A DNA stretch of 64,000 nt from Abditibacterium sp. Lineage in GTDB: Bacteria > Armatimonadota > Abditibacteriia > Abditibacteriales > Abditibacteriaceae. Positions 27,001 through 36,000 of the stretch are shown here, piece by piece. Position 1 is the first letter of the stretch. Each line of letters starts with the position of its first letter. The position numbers are program-made. Location: positions 1,888,001-1,952,000 of the forward strand of contig CBDASK010000003.1 in NCBI GenBank assembly GCA_965199495.1. Reading direction: 5' to 3'.

Positions 27001-30000
27001 AGTGCGCCAACCGCGCCGAAAAATGCGAATCGTTTCAGAGCAGCCACGGGCAAGCGGAGCGTTAGTTTCGTGATGTCAGGATGAAGCCAAATCGCGGTAT
27101 TTCGCGGTCAGCTCGCCGTTTTCGTCCCAGACGCCCGCGCGTTGCATCGCGCTCTTACCGATTTCCATGTCGGCGCGAATTTGCTGGGAAACTAATTCTA
27201 TGTAATCGCAGAACACTTCATTTTCCCGTTGTTGTGCGTGCGCGCGCTTCCAATTATGGACGAGTTTGTATTTTTTATTGAGCTTTTTGTATCTCAGATA
27301 GATGAACGCTTTTTGGGCGCCAATAAATGCCGAAATTGCCAGCACGAGGAGCGCGAGCCAGAGCAGTTTTTTGTTCATGTTTCCTCAGTGAAAGCAAAAA
27401 GCGCGCGGGGCTAAATTGGCGCTCGAAATCAGAGTGGGCGAAAGTAGCCCAAGACGCAATCGAGGTTGCGCACGCAGATTTGCGTGTGATCGGCAGATTG
27501 AAAACCGGCGTTTGGATAAAGCGGGCCGCCTTCCCAAAACGCGGCGCGCACGCTGTCGTAGGGCGTTTGGCCGCTCTCTTCGATGAGCAAGTGCATCAGG
27601 TTGAAAGTGGCGCAATCGAGTCGGCGCGCCCGCAGCGTTTGGCCATTGGTGGGAAGCGAGATATTTCTATCTTGGGTGTATCTGACGAGCGATTGATACG
27701 CATCTGCAAGTCGTGTGAGCGCACCCATTTCGGTGGTGATGAAACAATGTCCGAGGTTGATAACTGCGCCGACGATGAACGGTTCGTAAATCGTGCCGCG
27801 AGAATTACGCCCGCCCTGCGCGCGTTCACGGGCGAAATCGAGCGCGCGGGCGGGACTGGATTCCCAAAAATAGACGCCTTGGCCCAGCCAATCGTAATCG
27901 TTGCGCGAAAACTCGAGATGTGGAATTTCGCCGCTCAATACGGCTTCGCCAACAGAGCGGTCGCAACCGTGAAAGCCCAAAACGAATGAGGGATAAATCT
28001 CGTAACGTTCCCATGTTCGCGGGTTAGGATTGCTCTGGATCACGATATTTCTTCGCCAATTCGCCACTTTCGTCGATGATGCCAGCGCGTTGCATCACTC
28101 GCCGCAGAATTTCAGGATCGGTTTCGCTTTGCTTCAACAGGTTTTGCACGTAATCGTGAAACTCTTTGGCTTCCTGCTCCGCCGTCGGGGTGCGATTCCA
28201 TTTGGTGCCGGGTTGATATTTCATGTTGAGGTTTTCCTCCGTCGCAATTAAAGAAGCGAAGCGCGTGATGATCGCTCCGCTTTTGTAGGTTGAGCTTGCT
28301 AATCCCTGACTACTTTCAAAAGGTGACAGACCGCCCTGCCATCTGGCTCCAGTGTTATGTCTGCCGATACAACTTGTCCAACGGCGATATCGGAGAATTG
28401 AATTCGAGTTGAACGCGTAAAAGTCATGGTTTCCGGCTTCAAGACGGTTAGCATAACTCCATCGCCCGGTTCGCCAAATTTGAAAGCGCCTGTTTTGGGA
28501 AGGTAATCGGGTTTGGTAACAGTGATGATTCCCAGGGTTACTCCACCATTTTGAGGAGCGTCTGGGCCATTTCCATAAGTGGTTTTAGACATTCTATCGC
28601 CAAATTCAAACTGCGTGATCCCGGCGCGAACTGAGGAAGAGAAACCGGGCGTCCAGAAGAAAATTTGATCTGGGTCTGTGGCGGCTTTACGCTCCAGCAC
28701 AAAGGGCGCCAGCGAGGTCAGTGGCAAAGAACCTTCGTTCATCAAGAAGTCGAAATCATCGTTGCGAATTTCGGACAACGTATCGCCAATTTTGAGATCG
28801 GCCAGCGAAAGTCCTCGCTCTTCTCTAACGAACTTCGCGGAAGCGATCCATAGACTTAAAGTGCCGTTCGGTGTTGCAACTCGCAGACTATCGGTCGCGG
28901 GAGAAATCTCTACAATTGTGGTTTCGGGCGTGCGGAGAGTGTCTTTCGATTGTTGGCTTAGAGCAGGAAACGCGGTGCTTAAGAGCAAGGCGCCGGAAAA
29001 TAGCGAAACACCGAAAATACGGCTTACTTTTGGAGAGAAATGGCTTTTCATTGGAGCATTAAGAAAATTTTCACCATTGAAAAAGGGCGCGAACCAAAGT
29101 TTCGCGCCCTTTTATTTTAACCAACAACCGTCAATTCCACCGCGTCTTCGCGCGGCGTGTAGCTGCGGGTGCCGTCCTCGTATTCGCGCTGGGTTTGCGT
29201 GATGCGCATTGAGCAGAACTTGGGGCCGCACATCGAACAGAACTTGGCGTCTTTGAAGGCTTCGTCCGGCAATTCCTCGTCGTGCATGGCGCGCGCGGTT
29301 TCGGGATCGAGGCTGAGGGCAAACTGTTTCTCCCACTCGAAATTGAATCTTGCGCGCGAAAGTGCGTCGTCGCGGTCGCGGGCACCGGGGCGGTTGCGCG
29401 CGATATCGGCGGCGTGCGCGGCGATTTTATAGGCGATGACGCCCTGGCGCACATCGTCTTTGTTGGGCAAACCCAAATGCTCTTTGGGCGTGACGTAACA
29501 CAACATCGCCGCGCCCGCCTTTTATCACAATGAGTTTTCGTATTCCACTATTGGAGTGAGTAGCATCTTGCCAAAAGCTGGCGGCACAGCGTTGCCTATT
29601 ACTTTATATTTCCTATCGAGACTACCGCTTGGAATTGTTGTTTCGGGCAAGCCTTGGATTGCAGCGCATTCCCTCCAAGATAAACGCCGATTGAACTCTC
29701 CTTGTAACGCCCATTCATCTACGCCAACCGACACCATAGGACTCCCTCCTGGATGTAATGGAACATGGTGCGCATGGGCCACAATCGTAAAACTCGGTTC
29801 TTTCCAAGAGCGTTTTCTATTTCTGGTCAAATAATGACCGTGAAATGAAGTGTCACAGTAATCATCATCACTCCACGTTTTGCCCATTATAGCTTTCTCC
29901 AAAGTTTGCGGTTCTGAGCCGATCACGCCCTGTTCCAACTCTTCTTCAAAAGAACGCAACGCCAACCCTGTCCATTTGCAGCTACCTTTGTAAACGCGCT

Positions 30001-33000: not shown

Positions 33001-36000
33001 CGCGGATTTTACTCGGAGCCAATTATTCCGCCATCGCCAATTCCACGGCGCCTTCGCGCGGCGTGTAGCTGCGCGTGCCGTCCTCGTATTCGCGCTGGGT
33101 TTGCGTGATGCGCATCGAACAGAACTTCGGACCACACATCGAGCAGAACTTGGCGTCTTTGAACGCTTCGTCGGGCAACTCTTCGTCGTGCATCGCGCGC
33201 GCGGTTTCGGGATCGAGACTCAGGGCGAACTGTTTTTCCCACTCGAAATTAAAACGCGCGCGGCTCAAAGCGTCGTCGCGGTCGCGGGCGCCGGGGCGGT
33301 TGCGCGCGATGTCGGCGGCGTGAGCGGCGATTTTATAAGCGATGACGCCCTGGCGCACGTCGTCTTTGTTGGGCAAACCGAGATGTTCTTTGGGCGTAAC
33401 GTAACACAACATCGCCGCGCCCGCCTGTCCGGCCAGAGCCGCGCCGATGGCGCTGGTAATGTGATCGTAGCCGGGCGCGATGTCGGTGACGAGCGGGCCT
33501 AAAACGTAAAACGGCGCCTCGTGACACACGCGCATCTGGCGCTCGACGTTCATCGCGACCAAGTGCATCGGGATGTGACCCGGCCCCTCGACCATCACTT
33601 GAACATCGTGCTTCCAGGCGATTTTGGTCAATTCGCCCAAAACGTCCAATTCACCGAACTGCGCAGCATCGTTGGCATCGGCCAAACTGCCGGGACGCAA
33701 ACCGTCGCCGAGCGAAAAGGTCACGTCGTATTTTTTGAAGATTTCGCAGATCGCTTCAAAGTGTTCGTAGAGAAAGTTGTCGCGTTTGTGCGCGCTCATC
33801 CACTGCGCCAAGATGGAGCCACCGCGACTGACGATACCGGTTGTGCGATTGGCGGTTAAGGGAACGTGGTGCATTCGCACTCCCGCGTGAATCGTCATGT
33901 AATCCACGCCTTGCTGCGCCTGCTTTTCGATCACTTCGAGCATCACGTCAATGTTCAAATCTTCGACGCGCGGCACGTTATACAAGGCTTCGTAAATCGG
34001 CACAGTGCCAATCGGAACCGGACTATTTTTGATATTCGAGATACGAATCTCGTCCAGATCGCCGCCGGTTGACAAATCCATCACCGTATCGGCGCCCAGA
34101 TGGACGGCGGTGTGGAGTTTTTCCAATTCCTCGTCGAGGTTGGAACTGGTGGCCGAATTGCCGATGTTGGCGTTGATTTTGGTTTTCGCGCCCACGCCAA
34201 TCGCCATCGGTTCGAGGTTGGTGTGGTTGATGTTGGCCGGAATGACCATGCGACCGCGCGCGACTTCATCGCGAATGAACTGCGGTTCGAGTTCTTCGCG
34301 CGCCGCGACGTATTCCATTTCGGGCGTGATTTCGCCGTTGCGGGCGAGGTGCATTTGCGAGTAGTTGCCGTCGCCTTTGGCGATTCGGTCTTTGATCCAT
34401 TGTGAACGCATAATTTTGAGAAAGCTAACTGTTTCTCAGTATAAGACGCCTTGACTGGTAAAATAGAATCAAAGGATTTGAAACGCGAACGGATCGGCCT
34501 TATCGCTGCGAATCGCGAAAAGGATGTTGGCGCAAAATCTGTTGATGGCGCTCGGATTCGCGCGCGGCCCAATTGGAATCGAGCATCGCCAACAACTCGA
34601 TTTGTTTTGCAAAAGCAATGCGCCGACCATCTTGCGACTCGATGCGATGCTCTAATTCGTAGGAAAACGCCATGCTAAACGTCACGTCGGCGAAAATCCA
34701 TTCGAGCAGTTGATCGAGAAACGGCGCCCATTTGCGATCCAATTCCTGCCCGCGTTCGACGACCACGTAGAAGTAGAATCGGGAATCTACTCCGATGTGC
34801 GGGCGCGCGAAATCTTCGCTGGTGCCATAAGTCGGCAGCAGGTTTTCGGGCGAATTGATTTTGGCAGCCAAATGGTCAACTTCGACTTTAATTTCGGGCA
34901 AAGTGAGCATGATTTACGGTTTCCAAACCAACGATTTCGCTTCGTCGGGCGTAATCAGCGCGACGTGTCCATCGGCGAAACCAATCGCGGCTTTGCCATC
35001 GTAGCGGAAAACCGGCGTTTCGTTCTGGCCTTCGTAGAATAAAATGGTTTGCGCGGGCTTTTTAATTTCATCCGTTTTGAGGCCGCTGAGATTGCCGTTA
35101 AAGCTATAGATTTCGTTAGTGTTGGGCACCAGAAACAATTCGGGCGCCACAAACACCGTAGAGTTCCTCATGTAAGGGGCGAGAGCTTCCCTGTAATAAG
35201 GCGCGCCAAAAACGTAAGCATCGTCGTAATCCTGTGCGAACGCTGCCGCGCACAAACCTAATTTACGGAGATTCTCCATCGAACGCTCGGCGGGAGTGGC
35301 TTTGATTTTTGGCATCTGCGTTTGCGCGAAACCATAAGCGATGTTGGCCAGCAACACATCGTGTTTGGCGATGAACTCGGAACTGGTCATTTCAGCTGGC
35401 GCGGTTGGCGGCGGCACGATTCTCCAGACGGCGTGGCTTCCCCCAGAAGGGTTAGCTCCGAATTTGAGATCGACAGTTTCTTGATGCACACCGCTCCAAA
35501 ACTTGCGTTGTTCGTCATCGTCAATTTTCGGGGGAATAATTTTATATTCGACAACGGCGCGCGCGTCCGTTTGGCTGCTGCCCTGAACGCGAACGGATTC
35601 GATTTGAATCGCGCTCTCTTGCAAAAGTCGATTTAATTGTTTTGCCCAGTCGAAGGCTCCGAAATAGCCATAACGCGCGCCATAAATGTAGGGATAAACG
35701 GAGAAATAGCCGTCTTCCTGAGTCGCGGCCCGCGTCAACGCGCTCAAATCTTGCTTGATTTGTCCGGCGACATCCGCCGGACGCGCTGCCATTGATTGCG
35801 GCGTGACATCGGTTTGTGCCAGCGCGGGCGCCACGCGTAATGTCGCGGCCAGTGCGGAATAGAGGAAAATTTTCATTATCCAAATTATAATCGCCAATAA
35901 CAAAAAACGAGAGGCAATCGCCTCACGTTTTCACCAATTCGACGTTTAATCGTCGGCTTTTCTGTCAATTCGCGCGTGTCGTAATAACCGCGAAAGAACT

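What a model noticed while it worked through the whole genome (the two positions that open the first line are those of the whole stretch)
29117..34411. Integrase-free islets leave diverged gene-end duplications behind housekeeping genes
About 20 conserved genes (thiC, metH, ilvC, ilvD, typA, ffh, topA, carB, pckA and others) have a 60-400-bp, 77-94% identical copy of one end 0.6-8 kb away, with toxin-antitoxin, restriction or unknown genes and no integrase in between. The islets appear to enter by recombination into the gene end, leaving the old end as a scar.
Evidence so far: Self-BLAST of annotated genes lists 36 near fragments, most at a gene end; cargo lists in call 106. In G012 thiC runs straight into the gene beyond the scar, an empty site for the methylase cassette; metH carries different cargo in G006 and G012.
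(Added by a program. Inside this text positions count along the whole contig: contig position 1,888,001 is position 1 of the stretch shown here. "Call 12" and the like, gene names such as g00115 and contig names such as C1 are that model's own, and its searches are not shown. The text may have been shortened before it was handed on; [...] marks where a part breaks off. The agent that wrote the report below was given it as the finding of a first reader that could run no searches.)

Follow-up and report, generated by a model that had tools for sequence, protein, structure and literature searches.

The report
Gene-end scars of integrase-free insertions
In this bacterium, small toxin-antitoxin and restriction-like gene cassettes sit between an essential gene and a spare copy of that gene's end that came from a related species, which suggests they entered as DNA circles by ordinary recombination and needed no integrase.

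Summary
thiC (33023-34411, minus) has a 392-nt, 90%-identical copy of its 3' end at 29129-29520. Between them lies a low-GC cassette (ParB-like, restriction-nuclease-fold protein, C5 methylase). Relative G004 shows the empty site.

Genome-wide I kept 19 such end copies (16 at 3' ends, downstream; 3 at 5' ends, upstream). None holds a recombinase. Relatives carry their own at the same genes with other breakpoints.

New evidence:
- Young copies differ almost only at synonymous sites (thiC 31 synonymous, 2 non-synonymous codons), so the two copies are alleles from different species, not decayed duplicates.
- At thiC both copies switch ancestry reciprocally near the 3' tip (p=0.03). That fits a single crossover with a circular donor piece, so this scar is a donor/host chimera rather than simply the old end.

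Best reading: foreign chromosomal fragments circularise and integrate by one RecA crossover in a conserved gene end (0.55).

The class is known: "insertion with long target duplication" of restriction genes, and the route was shown in E. coli in the lab. The scale, the general cargo and the cross-species signature were not found in my searches. New variant of a known kind.

The parts
33023..34411 (-). Intact thiC (462 aa), the host gene. Body is host-like (G011-like); the last ~16 codons are donor-like (G004-like).
   Evidence: PF01964 E 1e-192; informative sites 56:42 and 18:9 G011:G004 in the body, 3:10 in nt 1341-1389
33052..33143 (-). Inferred crossover interval in the intact copy (codons 423-454)
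   Evidence: Last host-type informative codon 423, first donor-type 454; change-point permutation p=0.03. Inferred.
32980..33007 (-). Hairpin behind the intact thiC, unlike the one behind thiC in G004 and G011; taken as the donor's terminator
   Evidence: Sequence; function inferred
31743..32864 (-). Cargo 1: 373-aa protein with a ParB-like N-terminal domain
   Evidence: PADLOC PD-Lambda-5_A matches only residues 16-166, E 4e-23; a plasmid homologue of cargo 2 has an upstream gene annotated ParB/RepB/Spo0J
30721..31743 (-). Cargo 2: 340-aa protein with a restriction-endonuclease-like fold, probably the nuclease of the cassette
   Evidence: No Pfam or PADLOC hit; invariant D223, D227, Q247 in 30 homologues; model pLDDT 87; Foldseek best MspJI E 2e-4; VIA best Z 6.8, rmsd 5.1, 152 aligned, top ten all nuclease-type chains, a middling score
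29525..30721 (-). Cargo 3: C5 cytosine DNA methyltransferase (398 aa)
   Evidence: PF00145 E 7e-59; PADLOC DruM2 and MTase_II hits
29520..29524 (-). Non-homologous junction: the scar starts 4 nt after the methylase stop codon, at nt 986 of thiC
29117..29520 (-). Scar: second copy of the thiC 3' end, frame open to its own stop; donor-like next to the cargo, host-like at the tip
   Evidence: 31 synonymous and 2 non-synonymous codons of 130; 10:17 G011:G004 in nt 986-1340, 11:2 in nt 1341-1389
29080..29113 (-). Native thiC terminator-like hairpin, now behind the scar
   Evidence: Nearly identical to the hairpin behind thiC in G011 and similar in G004
28299..29051 (-). 250-aa gene of unknown family that follows thiC directly in G004 (empty site)
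   Evidence: Window 28290-29520 aligns without a break to G004 thiC and its downstream gene at 85%

Best explanation
A piece of chromosome from a sister species (about 88-93% identical) enters the cell. It carries part of a conserved gene's end plus the accessory genes that lie beside that gene in the donor. Its ends are trimmed and joined into a circle of about 0.6-4 kb (median 1.2 kb), which makes the cargo-to-gene-fragment junction. One RecA crossover between the gene fragment on the circle and the resident gene integrates it. The reading frame is restored, so even essential genes tolerate it, and the gene end is left twice, once on each side of the cargo, each copy a host/donor chimera. 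Shown: the anatomy, the polarity, allele-type divergence, one clean empty site, different breakpoints in different species, the reciprocal switch at thiC. Inferred: uptake by natural transformation, circularisation, RecA dependence, and that 10% divergence plus addictive cargo (toxin-antitoxin, restriction-modification) keeps the unit from looping out again.
For: Polarity 18 of 18. Fewer amino-acid changes than neutral decay gives at 10 of 13 loci with exact counts, P<=0.03. The thiC scar and intact copy are as far apart at synonymous sites (pS 0.39) as species of the genus are (0.31-0.39). Reciprocal ancestry switch at thiC, codon pattern ISIIIIIISSS, p=0.03. Over 8 young loci the cargo-side half favours the intact copy as host-like 24:18, the far half favours the scar 28:16, one-sided p=0.043. 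6 of 54 gene-by-genome pairs in relatives hold their own same-strand partial copy, with other breakpoints at thiC, carB, ilvD and metH. Cargo lies beside the same gene without a scar in relatives: MazEF behind metH in G004, a GNAT gene before carB in G009 and G011. G011 has rplQ - cassette - truA fragment - spacer - rplQ fragment - cassette - truA, as a circle cut inside two genes would leave. ComEC in 13 of 13 genus genomes. Lab precedent: in E. coli 56 of 60 clones arose by trimming, re-circularisation and single crossover, with 109-950 bp of the gene end duplicated in the 14 sequenced (PMC3240628).
Against: The crossover signal rests on one locus and 11 informative codons; with a looser site definition p=0.07, and the pooled test is 0.083 two-sided. 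The relatives used as stand-ins are other species, not the true donor or recipient. At metH and rplQ-truA-rplM the G004-like tract (93-96%) runs far beyond the repeat, which one small circle does not explain. The carB scar is G011-like at 8 of 8 sites up to the junction. Junctions lie within 10 nt of a cargo stop codon in 5 of 19 cases, which random trimming does not predict (p=0.005 against intergenic positions). No Ku was found in 13 of 13 genus genomes, so the joining enzyme is unknown. MutS is present and should disfavour a crossover at 90% identity.
Confidence: 0.55

Rival explanations
1. Linear route: homology-facilitated illegitimate recombination between sister chromosomes. Donor DNA recombines into the gene at one end; its cargo end joins illegitimately to a point upstream in the sister copy. 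The scar is wholly the old allele and the donor tract may be long.
For: Long G004-like tracts over all of metH and over rplQ-truA-rplM; carB scar host-like throughout; ComEC present; transformation makes tandem duplications by unequal crossing-over in pneumococcus (PMC3784515, abstract).
Against: Described HFIR leaves a deletion, not a duplication (PMC3240628). It needs both parents to be reciprocal mosaics to give the thiC pattern.
Confidence: 0.2
2. A larger duplication (whole gene or several genes, from a large circle or a merodiploid) was later cut back by deletions until only a gene end remained.
For: Internal fragments occur (ileS, an aldo-keto reductase, a glycosyltransferase, G011 wcaJ). 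Between zwf and pgl, adjacent in 4 of 4 relatives with both matches read (G004, G011, G006, G007), G000 holds the rplQ end, a 145-aa gene and a truA 5' fragment from 6 kb away. Trimming up to a kept gene could explain junctions flush with stop codons.
Against: The flush junctions include scars with almost no decay (thiC, ffh, pckG), leaving little time for repeated deletions. No whole-gene second copy of a core host was seen among the 55 partial hits or 54 relative loci, although the filter excludes whole copies. Compatible with the best explanation as a later step.
Confidence: 0.12
3. Decayed integrative elements whose attachment site carried the gene end (as prophage e14 does with icd) and which lost their integrase.
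For: The end product looks the same: a replaced gene end and a leftover pseudogene (icdC; PMC4444293 passage). G000 has true integrase elements elsewhere.
Against: 19 different targets against 10 recombinase genes, none within 29 kb. Breakpoints differ between species at the same gene. Both 5' and 3' ends are used. The thiC crossover lies near the tip, not at the scar's start. No shared junction motif by eye.
Confidence: 0.06
4. In-place duplication of the cell's own gene end followed by neutral decay, with cargo added later; or an assembly artefact.
For: Old scars (typA, wcaJ, LOG) do not reject neutral decay, P 0.09-0.5; at metH, typA and wcaJ most differences are private to the scar.
Against: thiC shows 2 amino-acid changes where neutral decay gives about 27; 10 of 13 loci reject it. 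A single contig of run X1 spans the junction.
Confidence: 0.04
5. The circles are reverse-transcribed RNA that ends just behind the last cargo stop codon.
For: Junctions flush with stop codons in G000 (5 of 19), G001 thiC (0 nt) and G009 (3 nt); reverse transcriptases in 11 of 13 genus genomes, two in G000.
Against: The thiC unit contains a terminator-like hairpin inside it; pckG, ilvD and metH cargo includes genes on the opposite strand; the two RT genes are not near any scar.
Confidence: 0.03

Closest known systems
Insertion with long target duplication of restriction-modification genes (Furuta, Abe, Kobayashi 2010, PMC2853133; passages and two sections read)
   Same: Cargo under 20 kb, direct repeats over 30 bp of variable length, no other mobile genes, empty site in a relative, repeats that often span a start or stop codon and leave the target intact, mostly in competent species. 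The thiC islet fits.
   Different: That survey covered restriction-modification cargo only and suggested restriction cutting as the cause; the repeat pairs I saw were 92-100% alike. Here most cargo is toxin-antitoxin or unknown genes, there are 19 sites in one genome, repeats are 75-95% alike with allele-type synonymous divergence, and one shows a reciprocal crossover.
Trimming, re-circularisation and single crossover of incoming DNA in E. coli (Amarir-Bouhram et al. 2011, PMC3240628; passages and Discussion read)
   Same: Same product: a 109-950 bp duplication of a gene end around foreign DNA, RecA-dependent, ten times more frequent than HFIR in that assay.
   Different: A laboratory plasmid with identical homology, at about 4e-9 per cell. 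Here natural, interspecies and fixed in genomes.
Integrase-free transfer hotspots and Neisseria minimal mobile elements (Oliveira et al. 2017, PMC5635113, passages; PMC1797815, passages; the two-flank definition of minimal mobile elements is recalled)
   Same: Short variable cassettes beside core genes, no integrase, raised recombination in flanking genes, restriction-modification cargo.
   Different: Those swap cargo by double crossover in two flanking genes and leave no duplication. Here a single anchor adds cargo and leaves a scar, which could seed such hotspots.
Prophage e14 in icd with the icdC pseudogene (PMC4444293, passage)
   Same: The element supplies a new gene end; the old end stays as a pseudogene.
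   Different: Needs its own integrase and a fixed site; neither is seen here.
PD-Lambda-5 and type II restriction-modification systems (for the thiC cargo)
   Same: ParB-like domain plus DNA methylase; nuclease-fold gene plus C5 methylase.
   Different: The PD-Lambda-5_A match covers only the ParB-like domain, and a third, nuclease-fold gene has no PADLOC model. The ParB-like and nuclease-fold genes travel together in 7 of 8 phylum loci, with a methylase seen in 2 of 8 within 1.5 kb flanks.

Membership tests
Insertion with long target duplication (criteria of PMC2853133) | Target duplication longer than 30 bp, direct | tested here: met
   392 nt at thiC; 49 nt or more at all 19
Insertion with long target duplication (criteria of PMC2853133) | Insert shorter than 20 kb with no other mobile-element genes | tested here: met
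   0.49-3.5 kb; no recombinase or transposase Pfam hit in called cargo genes
Insertion with long target duplication (criteria of PMC2853133) | Empty site in a related genome that aligns with the repeat | tested here: met
   thiC in G004; for most other loci relatives hold different cargo or end at a contig break
Insertion with long target duplication (criteria of PMC2853133) | Insert holds both a restriction and a modification gene | tested here: inconclusive
   thiC islet: methylase certain, nuclease by fold and motif only. Of the other 18 none has a methylase, so they are outside the strict definition though they work alike.
Integrase-driven island with a gene-end attachment site (e14/icd type) | Integrase in or beside the element | tested here: not met
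   Nearest PF00589 or PF07508 gene 29.7 kb away
Integrase-driven island with a gene-end attachment site (e14/icd type) | Fixed crossover point at a given gene | tested here: not met
   thiC 392 vs 80 nt, carB 118 vs 85, ilvD 75 vs 193, metH 3' vs 5' in different species
Homology-facilitated illegitimate recombination | Insertion coupled with a deletion of resident DNA | tested here: not met
   Resident DNA is duplicated at thiC, and the native terminator and next gene are kept
Homology-facilitated illegitimate recombination | 3-10 bp microhomology at the illegitimate joint | tested here: inconclusive
   The unjoined donor side is known only at metH through G004; no clear match
Minimal mobile element / double-crossover hotspot | Alternative cassettes between the same two core genes, no duplication | tested here: not met
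   Alternative cargo is seen but each of the 19 sites carries a duplication
Campbell-type single crossover of a circle | Reciprocal donor/host switch inside the two repeats | tested here: inconclusive
   Met at thiC (p=0.03 strict, 0.07 loose); only a trend over 8 loci; not seen at carB
Campbell-type single crossover of a circle | RecA dependence and a free circular intermediate | not testable with these tools
   Only assembled contigs were available; no joint skipping exactly 3906 nt is among those listed
PD-Lambda-5 (thiC cargo) | Full-length match to the A-protein model | tested here: not met
   Residues 16-166 against about 160 of 440 model positions

The most novel reading that the evidence does not exclude
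The islets are re-usable mobile units with no mobility gene. Once cargo is flanked by two copies of a gene end it can loop out by RecA as a circle of gene end plus cargo, pass to another species of the genus, and home into the same gene end. Each passage renews the far part of the scar with a working allele while the junction and the near part stay old. This would explain junctions worn flush to stop codons beside almost undecayed scars, amino-acid decay concentrated on the cargo side (55 vs 31 codons, synonymous 68 vs 69), one junction shared by G000 and G011 at the LOG gene in different gene orders, and two stacked metH scars with shared lesions in G004. It would be genomic evidence for the release and re-infection steps that PMC2853133 calls unproven.
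Probability: 0.3. Interest if true: 0.8.

Novelty: new variant of a known kind. Interest (0 to 1): 0.6.

Why it matters
Many bacterial transfer hotspots have no integrase. The accepted route, double crossover in two flanking core genes, swaps cargo but does not explain how the first cargo gets in. Here a lineage keeps readable records of single-anchor additions: each scar gives the anchor, the joint, and by synonymous divergence the donor's distance. If the circle model holds, conserved gene ends serve as general attachment sites across species, for any cargo and not only restriction genes. The scars also give a simple way to find recently gained defence cassettes, such as the undescribed ParB-like / nuclease-fold / C5-methylase trio at thiC.

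Tried and rejected
Searches that found nothing:
- JGI metagenome scans with the 340-aa cargo protein and with a thiC 3' DNA pattern gave no loci, so no same-species empty allele was obtained.
- No RNA holder was listed.
- Runs X2-X4 hold only relatives or small shares. X4 has 86-88% matches to two cassette genes and a low-depth joint from 29113 to 33021; these are not used as proof.
- The 80 named thiC loci were all from other phyla and served only as an outside control.
- Paper searches for the combined pattern returned no papers. Searches gave the precedents cited. The library lacks most subscription journals.

Ideas tested and dropped or left open:
- A shared motif or a multi-copy repeat at the junctions: none seen.
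- Ku-type end joining: not found in 13 genomes.
- Loss of MutS as the reason for cross-species crossovers: MutS found in 12 of 13.
- The 711-aa gene at C3:1.21 Mb is a serine recombinase element, not a scar.
- Menshen as the cargo's family: passages of PMC12065111 gave no match; not tested further.
- The kinase (STK) row used approximate counts and is left out of the 10-of-13 tally. Six of the 19 loci (DinB-family, unknown, LarA-like, AbiEii, topA, Uma2) were not put through that test.
- The CopA locus was uninformative in six relatives.

Limits:
- The G011 rplQ-truA region was read from match coordinates and a partial locus only.
- No supplementary files were read. Supplementary Figure 7 of PMC2853133 may already show gene-end cases like these.

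
Full report
Setting. The window is G000:C3:1888001-1952000 of a 4.81-Mb, three-contig genome. 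Cluster look-ups label near-identical S11 and ThiC proteins Abditibacteriota and Armatimonadota, so I take it to be of that lineage. G011 and G004 are the closest relatives held: other species of the genus, 84-92% identical at most of the genes compared.

The thiC locus. thiC (33023-34411, minus) is followed by a hairpin and three co-oriented genes: a ParB-like protein, a 340-aa protein with a restriction-nuclease-like fold, and a C5 methylase. Their GC is 0.42-0.47 against 0.557, and they are single-copy in the genome. Four bases after the methylase stop begins a second copy of thiC nt 986-1389. Behind it lie the terminator-like hairpin that follows thiC in G011 and G004, and a 250-aa gene. 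In G004 thiC runs straight into that gene. A 3868-nt contig of run X1 spans both junctions with no mismatch; X1 may be the source sample, so this tests the assembly, not independence.

Is it more than chance? I called genes with my own hexamer model and compared 3028 genes of 150 aa or more with 30 kb on each side. Of 55 low-copy partial hits, those at 0.5-10 kb show strict polarity: 18 of 18 3'-end pieces are same-strand and downstream, and 5 of 8 5'-end pieces are upstream. After dropping six paralogue or weak rows and adding two at 493 bp, 19 end copies remain. Cargo includes MazEF, PIN, Phd, HicB-like, HNH, GNAT, MerR and a cytolysin-domain protein, with many unknowns and no recombinase. 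The genome's 3 tyrosine and 7 large serine recombinase genes lie 29.7 kb or more from every site. A cruder uniform scan gave 18 downstream to 5 upstream in G000 and 4 to 4 in 0.8 Mb of G004, of which 2 downstream ones are clean. It gave 1 to 0 in 0.4 Mb of G009 and one doubtful hit in G020. In 80 thiC loci of other phyla (975 frames, 1.4 Mb) it gave none on the same strand; about 4 were expected at the G000 rate, Poisson P 0.01-0.025. That control is small and made of short loci.

The two copies are alleles of different lineages. At thiC 31 codons differ synonymously and 2 non-synonymously; neutral decay would give about 27 amino-acid changes. Ten of 13 loci with exact counts reject neutral decay at P<=0.03; LOG, typA and wcaJ do not. 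Synonymous distance between the thiC copies equals that between species. So the young scars were working gene ends in two lineages until recently and were brought together by transfer. Older scars have decayed since.

Relatives. Of 54 gene-by-genome pairs at 12 of the host genes, 6 hold a same-strand partial copy in the expected place, and 1 more hit is an inverted hairpin. The six are metH 5' (twice) in G004, carB 5' and ilvD 3' in G006, thiC 3' in G001, and LOG 3' and an internal wcaJ piece in G011. Several pairs had little flank, so misses are weak. Breakpoints differ from those in G000, except at LOG, where the junction is shared. None was found at thiC in the 8 genomes of other genera. 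Cargo genes sit beside the same host genes without a scar in other species, as donors should look. Most loci are not clean empty sites but hold other cargo, so these gene ends are recurrent hotspots.

Mechanism. Three routes give this anatomy and differ in what the scar is. An integrase crosses over at the scar's start. A linear one-anchor event leaves a wholly native scar. A circle crosses over inside the repeat and makes both copies chimeric. At sites where G011 and G004 differ, the intact thiC is G011-like in nt 1-985 (56:42) and 986-1340 (18:9) but G004-like at the tip (3:10). The scar is G004-like in 986-1340 (10:17) and G011-like at the tip (11:2) and in its terminator. Collapsed to codons, with the breakpoint free, p=0.03; with a looser definition p=0.07. 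A G011-like host and a G004-like circle explain this with one crossover. Over eight young loci the same trend gives p=0.043 one-sided and 0.083 two-sided. Against it: carB's scar is host-like throughout, and long G004-like tracts at metH and rplQ-truA show that ordinary long replacements also occur. The route itself has been seen in E. coli: incoming DNA was trimmed, ligated and integrated by a single crossover, duplicating 109-950 bp of the gene end (PMC3240628, passages and Discussion). ComEC is present in all 13 genus genomes, Ku in none, MutS in 12. Uptake route, ligation and RecA dependence are inferred. That divergence and addictive cargo protect the unit from looping out is inference from general knowledge.

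What remains unexplained. Five of 19 junctions lie within 10 nt of a cargo stop codon (p=0.005 against intergenic positions), as do those of G001 thiC and one in G009. Amino-acid decay is higher in the cargo-side half of scars: 55 vs 31 codons, p=0.013. It is 50 vs 28 after skipping three edge codons and p=0.07 with looser alignment; by locus it is 11 to 3, p=0.057. Synonymous changes are even, and orthologue controls give 22 vs 17. Alignment edges could contribute. Both features would follow if junctions are old and scars are renewed by repeated looping-out and re-entry, which is the novel case.

Comparison with what is known. Insertion with long target duplication is described for restriction-modification genes of all types, often spanning a start or stop codon (PMC2853133; passages, sections 14 and 15). 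The thiC islet fits that class if its nuclease is real. That paper points to restriction cutting as the cause and says release and re-infection are unproven. Integrase-free hotspots are ascribed to double crossover in flanking genes (PMC5635113, passages), which leaves no scar. The e14/icdC case gives the same leftover with an integrase (PMC4444293, passage). Transformation-made merodiploids are known (PMC3784515, abstract only). A genome-wide, cargo-general set with cross-species allele signatures was not found in searches; subscription papers and supplements were not seen.

Verdict. Observation confirmed; interpretation partly supported and refined. New variant of a known kind. Best mechanism: circle plus single crossover, 0.55. 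Interest 0.6. The re-usable-unit reading has probability 0.3 and would deserve 0.8.

Noticed in passing
window 34914-35903 and 39235-40224: Two 329-aa paralogues (46% protein identity, ends 79-93% alike in DNA) flank a 971-aa M16 peptidase. G011 has one copy directly before thiC, and run X4 shows a joint from 35051 to 39408. Possibly the same kind of event with a whole gene as the anchor.
   Followed up: partly
window 27076-28224: Two short frames (100 and 66 aa) with similar C-termini flank a 212-aa gene weakly like PD-T4-9_A (E 3e-6); G004 has a related array.
   Followed up: no
window 29525-32864; L289, L293, L297: The ParB-like and nuclease-fold genes occur together in 7 of 8 other phylum loci and on a Persicobacter plasmid; G310 has all three genes in the same order. 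A candidate defence system without a PADLOC model.
   Followed up: partly
L063:9059-9752 (G000:C3:3766059-3766752): Between zwf and pgl, which are adjacent in relatives, lie the rplQ end, a 145-aa gene and a truA 5' fragment, all belonging 6 kb upstream.
   Followed up: partly
L304 (G011:C292): rplQ, cassette, truA 5' fragment, spacer, rplQ 3' fragment, cassette, truA: a duplication bounded by pieces of two different genes.
   Followed up: partly
L048:4004-5554 (G000:C3:373004-374554): The typA islet carries a 516-aa protein with a thiol-activated cytolysin domain (PF01289, E 2e-25), unexpected in this lineage.
   Followed up: no
L051 (G000:C3:884221-892784): A 107-nt internal piece of ileS (93%) lies 5.2 kb upstream of the gene, beyond HicAB and Uma2 genes.
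   Followed up: partly
L062:3465-7134 (G000:C3:3735465-3739134): An EcoRV-like restriction-modification pair with MazF and HNH genes is followed by a 207-nt, 91% copy of the nuclease gene's 5' part, downstream rather than upstream.
   Followed up: no
G000:C3:68700-70133 and 1618095-1619522: Two reverse transcriptases of about 476 aa, each beside a related 570-660-aa gene; similar-sized RT hits occur in most genus genomes.
   Followed up: no
G000:C3 whole contig: GGWCC is almost absent (observed/expected 0.03-0.04), as are CTAG (0.04) and GTAC (0.11); not linked to this methylase.
   Followed up: no
G000:C3:2024297/2026577 and 3908587/3909423: Two low-copy intergenic direct repeats (106 nt 96%, 99 nt 94%) enclose one to three small genes, near dnaA and behind the GAPDH gene; possibly the same event with a non-coding anchor.
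   Followed up: no
L088 (G004:C3:722001-742000): Two stacked 5' metH scars share the same lesions, and the cargo between them is partly repeated, so scar plus cargo was duplicated again.
   Followed up: partly
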